A DNA stretch of 43,701 bases from a virus (lineage: Duplodnaviria > Heunggongvirae > Uroviricota > Caudoviricetes), in IMG/VR virus record IMGVR_UViG_2571042636_000008, positions 1 through 43,701 of that record; one strand, given 5' to 3'. This document shows, piece by piece, positions 3,368 through 17,596 of this stretch. Within the stretch, counting starts at the first letter, position 1, and every line of letters starts with the position of its first letter. The translations under genes and the position numbers were made by a program. The notes below the pieces were generated by a model. The model had not been told where the DNA came from. It did not search any database and saw only the letters and a program-made list of their open reading frames with translations.

Positions 3368-3991
3368 TCATGCGGCATGGTCGTGGTTTTTTATGCTGGA
3401 AATTTCTTTCTCCAGCTCTTCCAGGAACTTTTTCACTTCGGACTCAATCTCATTTGCCAGTGCTTCGTCGAAGTGAATGCGCTTTTTGAAATAGGCGAGG
3501 TCTGGTGGTAGACGATCGTCGAAACTAACGAAATCACACCATTTACGCCCTGTGCACATCATCTGAGCGTGCATCTGCAGCAGGTACTGGCGTTTTGGCT
3601 CGCCAGTTTTTAAGGTCTCAAGATGAGTCCAGGTGTTGGGGCACTTAATTTCGATAAGCCCATCACCATTAACAAGCCCATCAGGGCTTGCTGCAAATCC
3701 TGGTATAGATGGGTGATCGATAAGCCCCACTTCAGTGATTTCGGCATCGAACTCATTCAGCGCATACATTTCGCGCGCTACCGGCTCGAGTTCTGTTCCG
3801 CGCATCATTGCGGCGTTGGAGAAACCTTCTTCAAGCTTCCCGGTGAGGCGCTGGCAAATCAGCTCGGCCATGTAGTTCTGTCGGCTTGCGGCATAGCCAG
3901 ACTTGGTTCTGGCCATGACGTCAGCAAGGCGGCTGGCTGTGACTTTTCCGCAGCGAGCGGCAAACCATTCTGGGGTGCGTTGTTCCATCAT
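3368..3991 (-). CDS. YqaJ-like viral recombination exonuclease
   Basis: RTPEWF...GKVTASR...EIKCP motifs typical of the YqaJ/lambda-Exo-like family; adjacent to RecT. Confidence 0.8.
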   Translation of the reverse strand: MMEQRTPEWFAARCGKVTASRLADVMARTKSGYAASRQNYMAELICQRLTGKLEEGFSNAAMMRGTELEPVAREMYALNEFDAEITEVGLIDHPSIPGFAASPDGLVNGDGLIEIKCPNTWTHLETLKTGEPKRQYLLQMHAQMMCTGRKWCDFVSFDDRLPPDLAYFKKRIHFDEALANEIESEVKKFLEELEKEISSIKNHDHAA

Positions 3992-4734
3992 TTATCCTCC
4001 GGCGCTGCGGCATCGACAGGTTCTGCGTTGTCGACTGCAAGGCTCATGTCATACATGCGACGCTTCTCAACCGCGCCGATAACCTGTTTCTCTTCTGCGC
4101 TTAACGCCACCCAGAATTCCTGATACTTAACAGTTCCAAGGCGTGCGGCAGACTCGCCTTTTGCGATCAGTTCCGGGCGGCGATCATCCGATTCATGCCC
4201 TACATGAACCTCTGTCGCACTCCCTTCAATGACACGTTCGGCTTCGTCCTGATCGAAGATGCCAGCAAACCCAAATGCGAGACGCGCACACTGGATCAGC
4301 GTCTTGTGACGAAGCATACGGGTAGGGTGGGACTGCCATGGCTGAGTGTTGCGTTTGCACTCTCCCATGTACTCAGTAACGATGGTCGGGTGTGTGCGGT
4401 CTTTCCGGTATATCTTGCAGGTACACGCGCCTTCTTCCTTGTCGTAGGCAAACTCCATTCCATCAAACTGAGGATGTTCGTTGATGATTCGAGCCCAGCC
4501 GTCAACGCCGACCACTGGAACAATTCCGCCTTTATCCGGGAATGCATAAATCTCCTTCGTCCACGGATTTAGTCCGTACTGGTTGGCGACGATCAGCAGT
4601 GCCGTGAACTGCTCATCAGTGACATTCCCACCCTTAAATGCTGTATTTTTCAGAGTGTTCATCAGGTCAGTTCCGGCATCCATGCCGAGGCGGGAGGCAA
4701 GCTTCCCGGCCATTGTAGAAAGTGCTGTGCTCAT
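3988..4734 (-). CDS. recT: RecT-family single-strand annealing recombinase
   Basis: RecT-like sequence; start chosen at internal ATG (4734) with GAGGGG RBS; the track ORF extends to 4785. Confidence 0.85.
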   Translation of the reverse strand: MSTALSTMAGKLASRLGMDAGTDLMNTLKNTAFKGGNVTDEQFTALLIVANQYGLNPWTKEIYAFPDKGGIVPVVGVDGWARIINEHPQFDGMEFAYDKEEGACTCKIYRKDRTHPTIVTEYMGECKRNTQPWQSHPTRMLRHKTLIQCARLAFGFAGIFDQDEAERVIEGSATEVHVGHESDDRRPELIAKGESAARLGTVKYQEFWVALSAEEKQVIGAVEKRRMYDMSLAVDNAEPVDAAAPEDK

Positions 4735-4750
4735 AGAATTCCCCTCAAAG

Positions 4751-5041
4751 TTAAAACGGGCAGCCGGTGCGGTGGTCCCAGTCATATTCCGCCTGGGCGT
4801 AAGCTACTGCCGAGATGAGATCGTTATATGCCTCGCCAGCTGCATCGCTGCGGAGGCCTTCGTATGGGCTTTTGTCCATCGGCACAGAGAAGCGGAACAG
4901 GCCTGACGGCTCTTTCGGCAGGGCGTCGATAATTTCCTGCGCCCGATCGTCAATCCACTTTTGCTTCTCTTCGGTTAGCGACTGTTCAGCCCATTTCCTT
5001 TCTTCGATAGCGTCGTATGCGCGGTATGCGTTCATAAGCAC
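4751..5041 (-). CDS. Hypothetical protein
   Basis: 96-aa ORF in the early-left operon between the coiled-coil gene and recT. Confidence 0.5.
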   Translation of the reverse strand: MLMNAYRAYDAIEERKWAEQSLTEEKQKWIDDRAQEIIDALPKEPSGLFRFSVPMDKSPYEGLRSDAAGEAYNDLISAVAYAQAEYDWDHRTGCPF

Positions 5042-5042
5042 C

Positions 5043-6014
5043 TCAGTAACTGATACCGGTATGGGGAATGCAGCCGTCTTTAACCGCTGTAAGCACCTCG
5101 ATAGCCTGATCCCGAGTAAGGCTGGTATTGGCCAGAAGAGCTTTGACGATTTCAGTGCCTACAGCCTTGCGGTGCTTAACGTCGGCTTCGCGGCGAGCCT
5201 GCTCATCGGCTTTACGTTTCTCCTCAGCCAGGCGGGCCTGTTCGCGTTGCTCTGCCTCGCGGCGGATGCGATCGGCTTCTTCCTGAGCTTTGCGGCGCTC
5301 CGCTTCGATAGCGGCCTGCTTGTCAGCCTCAGCTTTCTTCTCGGCTGCAATGCGATCTCGCTCTGCCTGCTCAGCTTGTGCTTTCAACACAGCTTCGCGA
5401 TGCGCCGCTTCTTCACGTTCACGCTGTGCGCGCTGCTCAACTTCTCGGGCTGCTGCGGCGGCTGCCATTCGCTTAATTTCTTCTTCATGGGCAATGCGCT
5501 GGCGCTCAGCCTCAGCTGCTTTATCTGCCTGCTCTCGGTCGAAAGCGTCATTCATCAGCAGGGCCATTTCGTGGTCAGACTCAATCCGAGCTGCCAGCTG
5601 CCGATCGAACTCTTCATTCATGGCCAGTGCTTCGACGTGAAGGGCGTTCATGGCTTCTTCGGCCTTAATGCGTTCCTGCTCCGCCTCCCATTCGGTCAAC
5701 GGGCGACGCACTTCATCTTTCAGTGCATCGAGACGCTCACGGACAACGCGGCGGCTTTCATCAATCTGCTTTGGCAGCGCCTTCAGCTCAGCGACCAGGG
5801 CTTTACCTGCGTTGTCGATGTAGGTTTTAGAGCGCGCGACCTTGTGAGCCATGGATGCGATAGCATCGCGGCCTTTTTTGGTGGTCACGTCCGGCACCAG
5901 ACTGCGAGCCTCTTTTTCGATCGCTTCGATAAGCGGATCGAGTTGGTCGTTATTGGTGAAAACCGCCATCGCGTTCTTTTTCTCGATGACGACTAAATCC
6001 ATTATTTCGCTCAT
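5043..6014 (-). CDS. Coiled-coil protein, Ala/Glu/Arg-rich, unknown function
   Basis: 323 aa; long low-complexity charged helical region (AEAERQRIAHEEEIKRMAAAAAAREVEQRAQREREEAAHREA...); antisense ORFs in this region are GC-skew artefacts. Confidence 0.6.
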   Translation of the reverse strand: MSEIMDLVVIEKKNAMAVFTNNDQLDPLIEAIEKEARSLVPDVTTKKGRDAIASMAHKVARSKTYIDNAGKALVAELKALPKQIDESRRVVRERLDALKDEVRRPLTEWEAEQERIKAEEAMNALHVEALAMNEEFDRQLAARIESDHEMALLMNDAFDREQADKAAEAERQRIAHEEEIKRMAAAAAAREVEQRAQREREEAAHREAVLKAQAEQAERDRIAAEKKAEADKQAAIEAERRKAQEEADRIRREAEQREQARLAEEKRKADEQARREADVKHRKAVGTEIVKALLANTSLTRDQAIEVLTAVKDGCIPHTGISY

Positions 6015-6101
6015 GGTTTCCCCTGAAATTTGGTTGTAAGAATCCCGGCACCGTATTGGCTGCCTGATAGCTCAGTTAAATTCGTGCGCTGATATGCGCG
6101 G

Positions 6102-6296
6102 TTAATGCGTCCCGGCTGGAACCAGATTCGGCAGCAGGTCGCGTGCCTCAAATGCTTTGCGAATGTGGCGCAGGTTGCCCTGTGGCTCGAACCAGAAGGT
6201 TTCTTTCAGGTAGTCACGTGAAACCTTCCAGGCGGCGCCAGTTTTAGCGTTGCGCATCATCACGGCGCGTCCGTTGTTAGGAATTGAGTTAGCCAT
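6102..6296 (-). CDS. Hypothetical small protein
   Basis: 64-aa ORF in early-left operon. Confidence 0.4.
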   Translation of the reverse strand: MANSIPNNGRAVMMRNAKTGAAWKVSRDYLKETFWFEPQGNLRHIRKAFEARDLLPNLVPAGTH

Positions 6297-6779: not shown

Positions 6780-6900
6780 TGTTTGGATAAATTGAATATA
6801 CAAAATACAATCAATCTTGTAAACACATAAAATTGTATTTTGTTGTATTTAACAACCAAGTGGTTGTTTTTGTTGTTTTTATATTTGTTATTTGGCGTAT
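6780..6900. promoter_or_regulatory. Putative OL/PL operator-promoter region
   Basis: AT-rich; contains TACAATCAATCTTGTA (TACAA-N6-TTGTA) and further TACAA/TTGTA half-sites matching the motif in the cI-cro intergenic region. Confidence 0.5.
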
Positions 6901-6931: not shown

Positions 6932-6958
6932 AAAAAGCCCGTCACCGGGCTTTGCAGT
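6932..6958 (-). terminator. Rho-independent terminator downstream of the cI-linked membrane-protein gene
   Basis: Minus strand reads GCCCGGTGACGGGC followed by an 8-T run. Confidence 0.55.
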
Positions 6959-7423: not shown

Positions 7424-8119
7424 TTAAAGTAAAACTGAATACCAGAAAACCCTTCCTATGATTTCAACATCTTGCTCCATTGCCTCTTCGTCCTCTCGGT
7501 TGAAGCTGCGTATCACAAGAATTCCACCTGGCTTACGGTATAACTGCTTTATCCGCTTTAGCTTTTCATCTCCGGCACCTGGTTGCGCGATAGCATATAG
7601 TTTTCCATCAATGATCCGTTTGTTATTGGTGTCTACTGCAACCGTTGTTCCATCTGGAATAACAGGCTCCATACTGTCTCCAGTGGCTGGGAAGCAGATA
7701 ACTCCAGAACCATCGCTGTTAGCGCCAACTCTTCGTAAAGTTGCTTTGGAGAACCTCAACTTAAAGCCATTGTGATCATCGCTTTGAATGCGACCATCCC
7801 CGCAGGCAAATTCGATATCTTTCAAAAAAGGCACTTCTACTTCGCCCTCACTTAGTGGGGTATTTTTGTCCCATGAATCGACTTGGGACCATTCTTTTTC
7901 GGGAGGAATTTCACTGGTCATTTCATGCTCCCCAGTTAAGAGCCAGCTAACTGAGCACTTTAAAGCTGCTGCCAACTCCGGCAAGTATCTTGGGCGCTTA
8001 GTCCTTCCGTCTTCGAGTTGCTGTATGGCCTGCTGAGAGGTTTTAGCTAGTGAAGCCAGCTCCGCTTGCGTCAATGATAGCTCCGCACGCCTAAGTTTTA
8101 CTCTGTCCGCAATATTCAT
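7424..8119 (-). CDS. cI: cI-type repressor (N-terminal HTH + C-terminal S24 LexA-like autopeptidase domain)
   Basis: HTH region [33 protein letters not shown]; S24 motifs GDSM and KLKRIK; start at ATG 8119 with GAGGTGGA RBS; the track's longer N-terminal extension rejected. Confidence 0.9.
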
Positions 8120-8159
8120 ATCCACCTCATAAACCGATCCCTCATGCTTACAAGAAATA

Positions 8160-8217
8160 AGGTATTTGACAAACAAGTTTGTTTGACAATAAAATACAAA
8201 TAACCTTGTAAAGGAGG
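8160..8217. promoter_or_regulatory. OR/PR region: operators and rightward promoter for cro
   Basis: Direct TTTGACAA repeats; -35 TTGACA (8166-8171) with 18-bp spacer to TAAAAT (8190-8195); operator-like TACAAATAACCTTGTA; AAGGAGG RBS before cro. Confidence 0.6.
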
Positions 8218-8221
8218 CATC

Positions 8222-8443
8222 ATGGAAACTCTTTCTGACCGCGTTAAAAAACGCCGCAATGAACTTAATTTGACCCAAGCCGGTCTTGCTGAGCTTTCTG
8301 GAACCAAACAACAGACTATTCAGCAAGTTGAATCCGGATTAACAAAACGCCCACGCAAGCTCATTGAGCTGGCGACTGCCCTTCAGTGCGAGCCACGCTG
8401 GCTTCTTTTTGGAGAGCAAGGGAATAAAACCAATGCCGCCTAA
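8222..8443 (+). CDS. cro: Cro-like HTH (XRE-family) regulator
   Basis: 73 aa; [26 protein letters not shown]; divergent from cI across the operator region. Confidence 0.8.
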
Positions 8444-17439: not shown

Positions 17440-17514
17440 GGGTCAGAAGCACAGCGGTTGTGCGTTCGGCTGTTAACCGAATGGTCGAAGGTTCGAATCC
17501 TTCCTGTCCCGCCA
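17440..17514 (+). tRNA. tRNA-Asn (anticodon GTT), phage-encoded
   Basis: Hand-folded cloverleaf: D stem GCAC/GTGC, anticodon stem TTCGG/CCGAA with loop CTGTTAA, T arm GAAGG-TTCGAAT-CCTTC, 3' CCA; one T:T mismatch in acceptor stem and A at position 8. Confidence 0.6.
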
Positions 17515-17519
17515 AATTA

Positions 17520-17596
17520 GCGCCATTAGCTCAACCGGAGAGAGCAATAGCCTTCTAAGCTATCGGTTTCAGGTTCGAGTCCTGAATGGTGCACCA
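17520..17596 (+). tRNA. tRNA-Arg (anticodon TCT)
   Basis: Hand-folded cloverleaf: acceptor GCGCCAT/ATGGTGC, D stem GCTC/GAGC, anticodon loop CTTCTAA, T arm TCAGG-TTCGAGT-CCTGA, CCA; resembles E. coli argU from memory. Confidence 0.8.

What the first reader, a model, noticed from the sequence alone, without database searches (positions are those of the whole stretch)
5043..6014. Long Ala/Glu/Arg-rich coiled-coil protein in the early-left operon
A 323-aa protein dominated by charged helical low-complexity sequence, flanked by short unknown genes, in the region where lambdoid phages encode Gam/Kil/cIII-type host-modulating factors.
Basis: seen in the sequence. Interest (0 to 1): 0.35.

Follow-up and report, generated by a model that had tools for sequence, protein, structure and literature searches.

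The report
Optional rod-shaped phage recombination-module protein
This prophage gene encodes a long, rod-like helical protein related to phage phi80's "antidote to Gam"; it belongs to a very large uncharacterised family that heads phage recombination gene clusters, and it comes and goes independently of Gam.

Summary
The ORF is real: 5043-6014, minus strand, 323 aa, 45% Ala/Glu/Arg. It lies in the leftward early operon of a lambdoid E. coli/Klebsiella prophage.

It is not an orphan. It matches phrog_1376 over its full length and is 48% identical to phi80 gene agt ("anti-toxin for Gam / Mog"). As in phi80, it sits directly upstream of gamL; its stop codon lies inside the gamL ribosome-binding site.

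Comparative data do not support a dedicated GamL antidote:
- 34 of 78 loci carrying the family lack GamL.
- 97 of 149 GamL loci lack the family, including GamLs 97-99% identical to phi80's.
- Proteins 90-100% identical in every domain occur with and without GamL.

The constant feature is position. The gene is an optional first cistron of recombination modules built on RecT/Bet, Rad52-like, Erf or Sak4 annealing proteins, in phages of Enterobacteria, Pseudomonas, Vibrio and Sinorhizobium.

"Coiled coil" is only partly right. Residues 161-282 have the signature of an ER/K single alpha-helix (about 18 nm). This helix links a conserved N-terminal cap and rod to a small C-terminal domain ending in I-x-Y.

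No Pfam, solved-structure or defence-system relative was found. The verdict is a new member of a known but barely characterised family. Interest is moderate and the mechanism is unresolved.

The parts
5043..6014 (-). agt/mog-like gene, 323 aa including the TGA stop at 5045-5043; member of phrog_1376
   Evidence: ORF. phrog_1376 match, E = 1.6e-101, full length. 48% identity to phi80 Agt over the full length. No Pfam or NCBIfam match.
5640..6014 (-). Residues 1-125: the family-defining N-terminal region. Two short cap helices (12-20, 22-37) precede the start of a long helix. It carries the conserved PDVTTKKGR loop and the R-x-PLT-x-WE motif. Residues 40-112 are basic (pI 9.5).
   Evidence: Alignments A1, A2, A3 and A7 show invariant K47, G48, R49, K63, K78 and P105. 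AF2 pLDDT is 88. pI. 5,250 clusters match.
5535..5639 (-). Residues 126-160: continuation of the amphipathic rod, with the conserved SDHEMALLMN..FDRE motif
   Evidence: Alignment A1. 31% hydrophobic, a/d occupancy 0.46. Helical in AF2.
5169..5534 (-). Residues 161-282: ER/K-type charged single alpha-helix spacer, about 18 nm long. It tolerates indels and is the least conserved segment.
   Evidence: Composition and salt-bridge statistics, z = 4.9. AF2 helix with pLDDT 90-96 over residues 200-270. Length differences between homologs fall here. No DNA tandem repeat. 104 of 112 family representatives have at least 60 aa of this type.
5046..5168 (-). Residues 283-323: small conserved C-terminal domain ending in ...I-S-Y-COOH
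   Evidence: Alignment A1 shows I321 and Y323 invariant. Family-wide, 91 of 112 end in Y and 85 of 112 have I at -3. AF2 predicts a helix at 301-312 with low confidence for the tail.
6019..6024 (-). Shine-Dalgarno AGGGGA for the agt-like gene, at the end of a leader shared with phages that lack the gene
   Evidence: Sequence. Junction alignment.
4751..5035 (-). gamL, a phi80-type host-nuclease (RecBCD) inhibitor of 94 aa. Its SD GAGGTG (5044-5039) overlaps the agt-like TGA stop; its ATG is at 5035.
   Evidence: NF033500 phi80_GamL, E = 6.8e-42. phrog_1050. Sequence. 49% identity to phi80 GamL.
3988..4785 (-). RecT-family single-strand annealing protein
   Evidence: PF03837, E = 1.3e-27.
3368..3991 (-). 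YqaJ-type recombination exonuclease
   Evidence: PF09588, E = 2.6e-24.
6102..6296 (-). Upstream 64-aa gene (phrog_3722, function unknown). In phages lacking the agt-like gene it lies about 89 nt from gamL.
   Evidence: Its counterpart in phage Mulock is labelled 'cell division inhibitor protein', with no evidence given.
6795..6823 (-). pL-like sigma-70 promoter (TTTACA-17-TATATT) for the leftward operon. It follows the terminator of the cI transcript at 6934-6953.
   Evidence: Consensus scan only.

Best explanation
What is shown:
- The gene is the E. coli/Klebsiella-prophage counterpart of phage phi80 agt (also called mog).
- It belongs to a very large phage family (phrog_1376) that has no Pfam model.
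- The gene is an optional, cassette-like first cistron of the phage recombination (Rec) module.
- The protein is cytoplasmic and predicted to be almost entirely helical. From N to C it has a small cap, a conserved amphipathic and partly basic rod (residues ~46-160), an ER/K single alpha-helix of about 120 residues (~18 nm), and a 40-aa C-terminal domain ending in I-x-Y.

What I infer:
- The protein is a bivalent spacer or tether. Its two conserved ends engage partners that are constant between phages, meaning host DNA-end-processing components or DNA itself, rather than the phage's own annealing protein or GamL.
- It thereby tunes how DNA ends are handled while the Rec module and the RecBCD inhibitor are expressed.
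- In phi80 this would show up as relief of GamL toxicity.
- Here, translational coupling to gamL would additionally set GamL dosage.
- It is not an obligate GamL antitoxin.
For: Identity:
- phrog_1376, E = 1.6e-101, full length.
- 48% identity to phi80 Agt across all regions.
- Same gene order agt-gamL-recT-exo as phi80.
- The stop codon lies inside the gamL Shine-Dalgarno.

Linkage to the Rec module:
- In 79 IMG/VR loci the first downstream gene of at least 140 aa is RecT/Bet in 34, Rad52-like in 19, ERF in 11, Sak4 in 3 and a RecE-like nuclease in 1.
- The same holds for Pseudomonas D3, Sinorhizobium phiLM21, Vibrio phages and Sf6.

Independence from GamL and from the annealing-protein type:
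- 34 of 78 family loci lack GamL.
- 53 of 75 window-type GamL loci and 44 of 74 phi80-type GamL loci lack the family.
- L011-L014 proteins are 90-100% identical in every domain but sit with Arf and Erf.
- A 99.8%-identical copy sits with Bet and lambda Exo.
- Domain type shows no association with GamL: p = 1.0 for the N type, p = 0.34 and 0.36 for the two main C types.
- The gene is a precise gene-sized indel.

Architecture:
- ER/K statistics.
- AF2 models with pLDDT 83 and 88.
- The three-part plan is family-wide: 104 of 112 representatives have an ER/K stretch, and 91 of 112 end in Tyr.
- Indels are confined to the spacer.
- There is no transmembrane segment.
Against: - No partner has been identified, and no interaction was modelled. 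Complex prediction was not possible with the tools allowed.
- The tether idea rests on architecture and on independence from the phage-side partners, not on any positive evidence for a host target.
- The only functional statement about the family, the phi80 annotation, points to GamL specifically. I could not read the underlying experiments.
- Mosaic recombination at gene boundaries could place functionally unrelated genes side by side, so conserved position alone does not prove involvement in recombination.
- The IMG/VR samples are the 80 best matches per query, so they are biased towards enterobacterial prophages.
- GamL-less loci were checked for other RecBCD inhibitors only in part. Abc2 was found in some, and no Gam or Mu-Gam was found among the common small genes.
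Confidence: 0.5

Rival explanations
1. Dedicated protein antidote (antitoxin-like) to GamL, as annotated in phi80. It binds and buffers the RecBCD inhibitor, and it is encoded upstream and translationally coupled like a type II antitoxin.
For: - phi80 annotation: 'anti-toxin for Gam; Mog (modifier of Gam)' and, for gamL, 'toxic without Mog'.
- Identical gene order, and the stop codon overlaps the gamL SD.
- 44 of 78 family loci have GamL as the very next gene.
- The basic rod (pI 9.5) could pair with the acidic GamL (pI 4.5).
Against: - The family occurs without GamL in 34 of 78 loci and in all distant hosts examined.
- GamL occurs without the family in 97 of 149 loci, including GamLs 97-99% identical to phi80's.
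- Near-identical proteins occur with and without GamL.
- Domain types do not co-vary with GamL.
- No DNA-binding autoregulatory domain was found.
Confidence: 0.2
2. Anti-defence or guard-evasion accessory. It would be an optional early gene that protects phages using Rec or anti-RecBCD functions from host systems that sense DNA ends or RecBCD inhibition.
For: - Presence/absence cassette behaviour among otherwise similar phages.
- Early-operon location among host-takeover genes.
- Independence from the phage's own Rec proteins.
- Intragenic mosaicism with several allelic types of both end domains.
Against: - No similarity to any known anti-defence protein.
- No PADLOC-related partner.
- The very stable position at the head of Rec modules across distant hosts suggests a recombination-linked role rather than a host-strain-specific counter-defence.
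Confidence: 0.15
3. Kil/cIII-type host-physiology modulator (cell division or protease inhibition). Expression alone would be toxic or alter morphology.
For: Location in the early-left operon next to small host-modulating genes.
Against: - No homology to Kil, cIII or Gam.
- Related phages carry separate kil and cIII genes beside it.
- It is much larger than those proteins and has a different architecture.
Confidence: 0.07
4. TolA-like cell-envelope protein, as many database records name it.
For: Source names 'TolA protein' and 'cell envelope biogenesis protein'. The Ala/Glu/Lys/Arg-rich helix resembles TolA domain II in composition.
Against: - No transmembrane anchor or signal sequence; the maximum 19-aa hydropathy is 0.78.
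- No TolA domain or any other Pfam hit.
- The conserved ends are unrelated to TolA.
- The labels rest on low-complexity matches.
Confidence: 0.02

Closest known systems
Phage phi80 (Lula) Agt / Mog, gp39 (YP_007947961), 'anti-toxin for Gam'
   Same: - Full-length homolog: 48% identity, 322 vs 323 aa, same three-part plan.
- Same position directly upstream of gamL, followed by a RecT-like protein and an exonuclease in the pL operon.
   Different: - The N-terminal region is a different allelic type (~50% identity).
- The partner GamL is only 49% identical.
- The phi80 function rests on one annotation, from Rotman et al. 2012, which I could not read.
- Neither gene depends on the other across natural phages.
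Uncharacterised homologs: Shigella phage Sf6 gp33, Pseudomonas phage D3 Orf53, Sinorhizobium phiLM21 gp10, Vibrio phage 'coil containing protein' (phrog_1376 and its fragment families phrog_17211 and phrog_21365)
   Same: - Same N-terminal region, ER/K spacer and I-x-Y C-terminus.
- Same position at the head of the Rec module.
   Different: These sit next to Erf, RecE-like or cIII/kil genes with no GamL. None has a tested function.
P22 Abc1 / Arf (accessory recombination proteins of the P22 Rec module)
   Same: They are non-essential accessory genes inside Rec modules with unknown molecular mechanism (PMC12315714). Arf co-occurs with this family in Erf-type modules.
   Different: There is no sequence relationship. 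Those proteins are 50-100 aa and lack the rod-spacer architecture.
ER/K single alpha-helix (SAH) spacers, e.g. in myosin VI/X and caldesmon; TolA domain II is compositionally similar (from my own knowledge of these motifs)
   Same: Very high E/R/K/A content, enriched i to i+3/i+4 opposite-charge pairs, almost no hydrophobic core positions, and variable length.
   Different: The resemblance is physical, not homology. The context here is a cytoplasmic phage protein with two conserved end domains.
Type II antitoxins
   Same: The upstream gene overlaps the signals of a gene reported to be toxic.
   Different: - No obligate co-inheritance.
- No recognisable DNA-binding domain.
- At 323 aa it is far larger than typical antitoxins.

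Membership tests
phi80 Agt/Mog family (phrog_1376) | Full-length sequence homology to phi80 Agt and to the family profile | tested here: met
   phrog_1376 E = 1.6e-101, covering residues 1-323 against profile positions 1-362 of 362. 48% identity to phi80 Agt, with conserved N-terminal, mid and C-terminal blocks.
phi80 Agt/Mog family (phrog_1376) | Location in the pL operon immediately upstream of gamL and the annealing-protein/exonuclease pair | tested here: met
   Gene order agt-like, GamL, RecT, YqaJ exonuclease, matching phi80. There is a 7-nt gap, and the stop codon lies within the gamL SD.
phi80 Agt/Mog family (phrog_1376) | Relieves GamL toxicity (the property that gives the gene its name) | not testable with these tools
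   This needs expression experiments. The source paper is not held.
Dedicated antitoxin of GamL (type II TA-like pair) | Obligate co-occurrence of the two genes | tested here: not met
   34 of 78 family loci have no GamL. 53 of 75 and 44 of 74 GamL loci have no family member.
Dedicated antitoxin of GamL (type II TA-like pair) | Sequence co-variation with the partner | tested here: not met
   Proteins 90-100% identical in every domain occur with and without GamL. Fisher tests give p = 1.0, 0.34 and 0.36.
Dedicated antitoxin of GamL (type II TA-like pair) | Antitoxin gene upstream and coupled to the toxin gene | tested here: met
   TGA at 5045-5043 lies inside GAGGTG at 5044-5039; the ATG is at 5035.
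TolA | N-terminal membrane anchor and TolA C-terminal domain | tested here: not met
   Maximum hydropathy 0.78. No Pfam hit.
Canonical heptad coiled coil | Hydrophobic a/d positions with 3.5-residue periodicity | tested here: not met
   For residues 161-282: 15% a/d occupancy, 65% of those positions charged or Gln, and power 0.02 at period 3.5. Residues 46-160 are inconclusive, with a/d occupancy 0.46-0.47.
ER/K single alpha-helix | High E/R/K content, few hydrophobic residues, enriched i+3/i+4 opposite-charge pairs | tested here: met
   52% charged, 9% hydrophobic, 54 pairs against 32.8 +/- 4.4 in shuffles (z = 4.9). AF2 predicts a continuous helix with pLDDT above 90.
ER/K single alpha-helix | Stable monomeric helix in solution | not testable with these tools
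   Needs CD, SAXS or SEC-MALS.
RecE N-terminal region / 'RecE-2' nuclease-less proteins | Sequence or profile homology to Rac RecE | tested here: not met
   BLASTP E = 1.1. hhalign probability 0.2%.
Gam / Kil / cIII host modulators | Homology to any of these families | tested here: not met
   No hits in Pfam, NCBIfam or PHROGs to these families. Those families map to neighbouring genes instead.
Known anti-phage defence proteins (PADLOC) | Match to a defence-system model | tested here: not met
   No match.

The most novel reading that the evidence does not exclude
The agt/mog family may be an unrecognised, widespread fifth component of phage recombination modules in Proteobacteria, alongside the annealing protein, exonuclease, SSB and anti-RecBCD protein. 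In this reading it is a host-directed, rod-shaped tether. Its conserved ends would bind a host DNA-end-processing or replication factor (or DNA), held about 18 nm or more apart by an ER/K helix. Its 'antidote to Gam' phenotype would then be a side-effect of that activity.
Probability: 0.25. Interest if true: 0.65.

Novelty: new member of a known kind. Interest (0 to 1): 0.4.

Why it matters
Phage Rec modules (Red, RecET, Erf) are the basis of recombineering and are central to the mosaic evolution of phages. A recent survey of 325 lambdoid phages lists annealing proteins, exonucleases, SSBs and anti-RecBCD proteins as the module components. It states that few genes of unpredictable function lie neatly inside otherwise canonical Rec modules, and it does not mention this family (PMC12315714).

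Yet the family spans thousands of sequence clusters. It sits at the head of Rec modules of four annealing-protein families in distant hosts.

If it tunes RecBCD inhibition or DNA-end handling, it could affect recombineering efficiency and the toxicity of Gam-type inhibitors. It would also explain a long-standing 'hypothetical / TolA' misannotation. If it turns out to be a passive, dispensable cassette, it is ordinary.

Tried and rejected
1. Pfam and NCBIfam on the whole protein, and on the isolated N- and C-terminal regions of five homologs at E up to 10. This gave only inconsistent sub-threshold hits. DUF1351, Sipho_Gp157 and Mu-Gam did not appear.
2. PDB sequence search: nothing below E = 0.14.
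4. Homology to the dispensable N-terminal region of Rac RecE, or to 'RecE-2' proteins: rejected.
5. TolA-like envelope protein: rejected, because there is no membrane segment and no TolA domain.
6. Defence-system models (PADLOC): no match.
7. Internal DNA tandem repeats that might explain the length steps: none found.
8. Literature. Rotman et al. 2012, the source of the agt/mog name, is not held. Other 'GamL' papers concern the long isoform of lambda Gam. The 2025 Rec-module survey and the 2010 recombinase gene-context paper do not mention the family. The survey's supplements are not held.
9. One script call was a typing error and produced nothing.

Full report
OBSERVATION

It has a Shine-Dalgarno AGGGGA six bases before the ATG. 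Ala, Glu and Arg make up 45% of the residues. Residues 161-282 are 80-89% A/E/R/K/Q and contain no Pro or Gly. A 393-aa ORF on the opposite strand (4815..5996) is its antisense shadow.

The window is a complete lambdoid prophage. The integrase is at 1-1260, and a cI-like repressor at 7424-8326 is transcribed divergently from cro/cII-like genes. Replication and structural genes lie to the right. The gene lies in the leftward early operon, downstream of a terminator (6953-6934) and a pL-like promoter (6823-6795).

WHAT IT IS

Pfam and NCBIfam give nothing. PHROGs gives a full-length match to phrog_1376, a family of unknown function (E = 1.6e-101).

The genes immediately downstream on the same strand are:
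- GamL (NF033500 'phi80_GamL', E = 7e-42).
- A RecT-family annealing protein, a YqaJ exonuclease and a Dam methylase.

A translated search of phage genomes finds 187 records. Most label the gene 'hypothetical' or, wrongly, 'TolA'. In phage phi80, however, the homolog is annotated 'agt: anti-toxin for Gam; Mog (modifier of Gam)'. It lies directly upstream of gamL, which is annotated 'toxic without Mog', and is followed by a RecT-like gene and exo.

The window protein aligns with phi80 Agt over its whole length at 48% identity. The gene order is the same. The TGA stop (5045-5043) lies inside the gamL ribosome-binding site GAGGTG (5044-5039), seven bases before the gamL ATG. On homology and synteny it belongs to the Agt/Mog family.

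The identical protein is on more than 200 E. coli and Klebsiella contigs. It is in 60 of 5,426 complete E. coli genomes, always chromosomal, where PGAP calls it 'hypothetical' or 'coiled-coil domain-containing protein'.

IS IT A DEDICATED GamL ANTIDOTE?

I tested this in both directions with loci from IMG/VR.

Starting from the family (80 loci at 49-100% identity):
- The next gene is a GamL type in 44 of 78 scorable loci, always followed by RecT or Bet.
- The other 34 have no GamL. Those loci carry unrelated small genes, followed by Erf-, Rad52- or Sak4-type annealing proteins. The small genes are an unknown phrog_7311 plus the Erf cofactor Arf, or cIII/Kil. Abc2 is sometimes present.

Starting from GamL:
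- Only 22 of 75 loci with a window-type GamL (95-100% identity) have the family upstream.
- Only 30 of 74 loci with a phi80-type GamL (75-100% identity) have it. The 44 loci that lack it include GamLs 97-99% identical to phi80's.
- Where the gene is absent, gamL follows the same 64-aa upstream gene after about 89 nt.

The junction alignment shows a precise, gene-sized indel. It lies between a shared leader (...AATTTCAGG) and the gamL start.

Sequence does not track GamL either. Proteins in L011-L014 are 90-100% identical to the window protein in every domain, yet they sit in Arf-Erf modules. A 99.8%-identical copy in E. coli ST361 sits with Bet and lambda Exo instead of RecT and YqaJ. The allelic types of the N-terminal region and of the two main C-terminal types are independent of GamL (p = 1.0, 0.34 and 0.36). 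Only the rarest C type shows a weak association (p = 0.018), which linkage can explain.

So neither gene requires the other in nature. The phi80 label cannot be the general function. I could not read the paper behind it.

WHAT IS CONSTANT

Position is constant. In 68 of 79 loci the first sizeable downstream gene is an annealing protein: RecT/Bet in 34, Rad52-like in 19, ERF in 11 and Sak4 in 3. One further locus has a RecE-like nuclease. About ten have an unassigned 170-aa protein (phrog_21613) in that slot.

The same arrangement holds in distant hosts:
- Pseudomonas D3 orf53 is followed by Erf and a YqaJ exonuclease.
- Sinorhizobium phiLM21 gp10 is followed by Erf, YqaJ and NinB.
- A Vibrio phage homolog is followed by a RecE-like exonuclease.
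- In Sf6, gp33 heads a cIII-kil-Erf-SSB-Abc2 block.

The N-terminal 129 residues alone match 5,250 clusters at 50% identity (3,901 at E <= 1e-10). The match is always at the N-terminus of proteins of about 280-430 aa.

ARCHITECTURE

AF2 predicts two short cap helices (12-20, 22-37) followed by one very long helix (46-296). Confidence dips at residues 160-185. A short C-terminal helix follows at 301-312. The full-length model has pLDDT 83, and the model of residues 1-165 has pLDDT 88.

Residues 46-160 are amphipathic (about 30% hydrophobic) and residues 40-112 are basic (pI 9.5). They carry the family's invariant residues K47, G48, R49, K63, K78 and P105, and the R-x-PLT-x-WE motif.

Residues 161-282 are not a heptad coiled coil:
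- 9% hydrophobic.
- 15% hydrophobic occupancy of a/d positions in the best register.
- No 3.5-residue periodicity.
- 54 opposite-charge i+3/i+4 pairs against 32.8 +/- 4.4 in shuffles (z = 4.9).

This is the signature of an ER/K single alpha-helix, about 18 nm long.

All length differences between homologs fall in this segment or in the mid-rod region, and there is no DNA repeat. Across 112 diverse full-length representatives, 104 have an ER/K stretch of at least 60 aa (median 140). Also, 91 end in Tyr and 85 have Ile at -3. There is no membrane segment, which disposes of the 'TolA' label.

The N- and C-terminal types reassort within the gene. This fits two autonomous ends joined by a spacer.

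MECHANISM

Shown:
- Family membership.
- Optional-cassette behaviour.
- Linkage to Rec modules of every annealing-protein type.
- Independence from GamL.
- A rod-plus-spacer architecture.

Inferred: near-identical proteins serve modules with different phage partners, so the partners of the two conserved ends are probably constant between phages. That means host DNA-end-processing or replication factors, or DNA itself. The ER/K helix would set their separation. Relief of GamL toxicity in phi80 would be one consequence. Here, translational coupling may also set GamL dosage. I give this explanation about 0.5 overall: roughly 0.9 for identity and about 0.3 for the tether mechanism.

Rivals are a dedicated GamL antidote (0.2), an anti-defence accessory (0.15), a Kil/cIII-like modulator (0.07) and TolA (0.02).

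COMPARISON AND NOVELTY

The closest known relative is phi80 Agt/Mog. The other homologs (Sf6 gp33, D3 Orf53) are uncharacterised. There is no relationship to the RecE N-terminus. There is no solved structure, no known viral fold and no defence-system match.

A 2025 survey of lambdoid Rec modules does not mention the family. A 2010 gene-context study of phage recombinases does not either.

The finding is therefore a new member of a known but barely characterised kind. The gene itself is common. The comparative result is new information of moderate interest: it is a widespread, optional head gene of Rec modules, and it is not tied to GamL.

LIMITS

- The IMG/VR samples are the best 80 matches per query, so they are dominated by enterobacterial prophages.
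- ORF calling in the loci was mechanical.
- Other RecBCD inhibitors in the GamL-less loci were only partly excluded.
- No complex modelling was possible.

Noticed in passing
IMG/VR loci L016, L020, L025, L043, L052, L053, L066, L071, L078, L082 (e.g. L043:8267-8776): A 170-aa protein (phrog_21613, function unknown, no Pfam hit) sits between GamL and a YqaJ exonuclease, exactly where the annealing protein normally is. A Vibrio phage protein in the same slot matches the same family weakly. It is a candidate unrecognised annealing or SSB-like protein.
   Followed up: partly
window 4815-5996 (+): This 393-aa ORF is antisense to the agt-like gene. It is a shadow ORF created by the codon composition of the ER/K region, not a gene.
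   Followed up: partly
window 5046-5054 (-) and family-wide: The family C-terminus is almost always ...I-x-Y-COOH (91 of 112 end in Tyr, 85 of 112 have Ile at -3). In form it resembles the I-P-F-COOH tip of bacterial SSB, which docks onto many DNA-metabolism proteins. This is untested speculation.
   Followed up: no
window 5043-6014 (-) compared with L008-L087: The gene is mosaic internally. Two N-terminal types (>=87% and ~50% identity) and three C-terminal types (>=88%, ~66%, <=32%) reassort, and the low-complexity spacer is the likely crossover zone.
   Followed up: partly
window 6102-6296 (-): The 64-aa gene (phrog_3722, unknown) is the constant upstream neighbour, whether or not the agt-like cassette is present. 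Phage Mulock labels its counterpart 'cell division inhibitor protein' without giving evidence.
   Followed up: no
window 17440-17514 and 17520-17596 (+): Two adjacent phage-borne tRNA genes: tRNA-Asn (GTT) and tRNA-Arg (TCT).
   Followed up: no
L090 (OP828577.1, 'Plectonema phage Lbo240-yong2') 3971-5044: Its homolog is 86% identical to Pseudomonas phage D3 orf53 over the N-terminal region, and its neighbours look D3-like. The cyanobacterial host label, and product names such as 'ribosome recycling factor', look doubtful.
   Followed up: no
L011:9080-9382 and 11 other GamL-less loci: A 101-aa protein (phrog_38486, unknown) follows Erf in 12 loci that lack any recognised RecBCD inhibitor. It could be an unrecognised inhibitor or accessory.
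   Followed up: no
window 7424-8326 (-): The cI-like repressor ORF as listed starts at a TTG and carries about 70 extra N-terminal residues. The real start is probably the internal Met of [11 protein letters not shown]...
   Followed up: no
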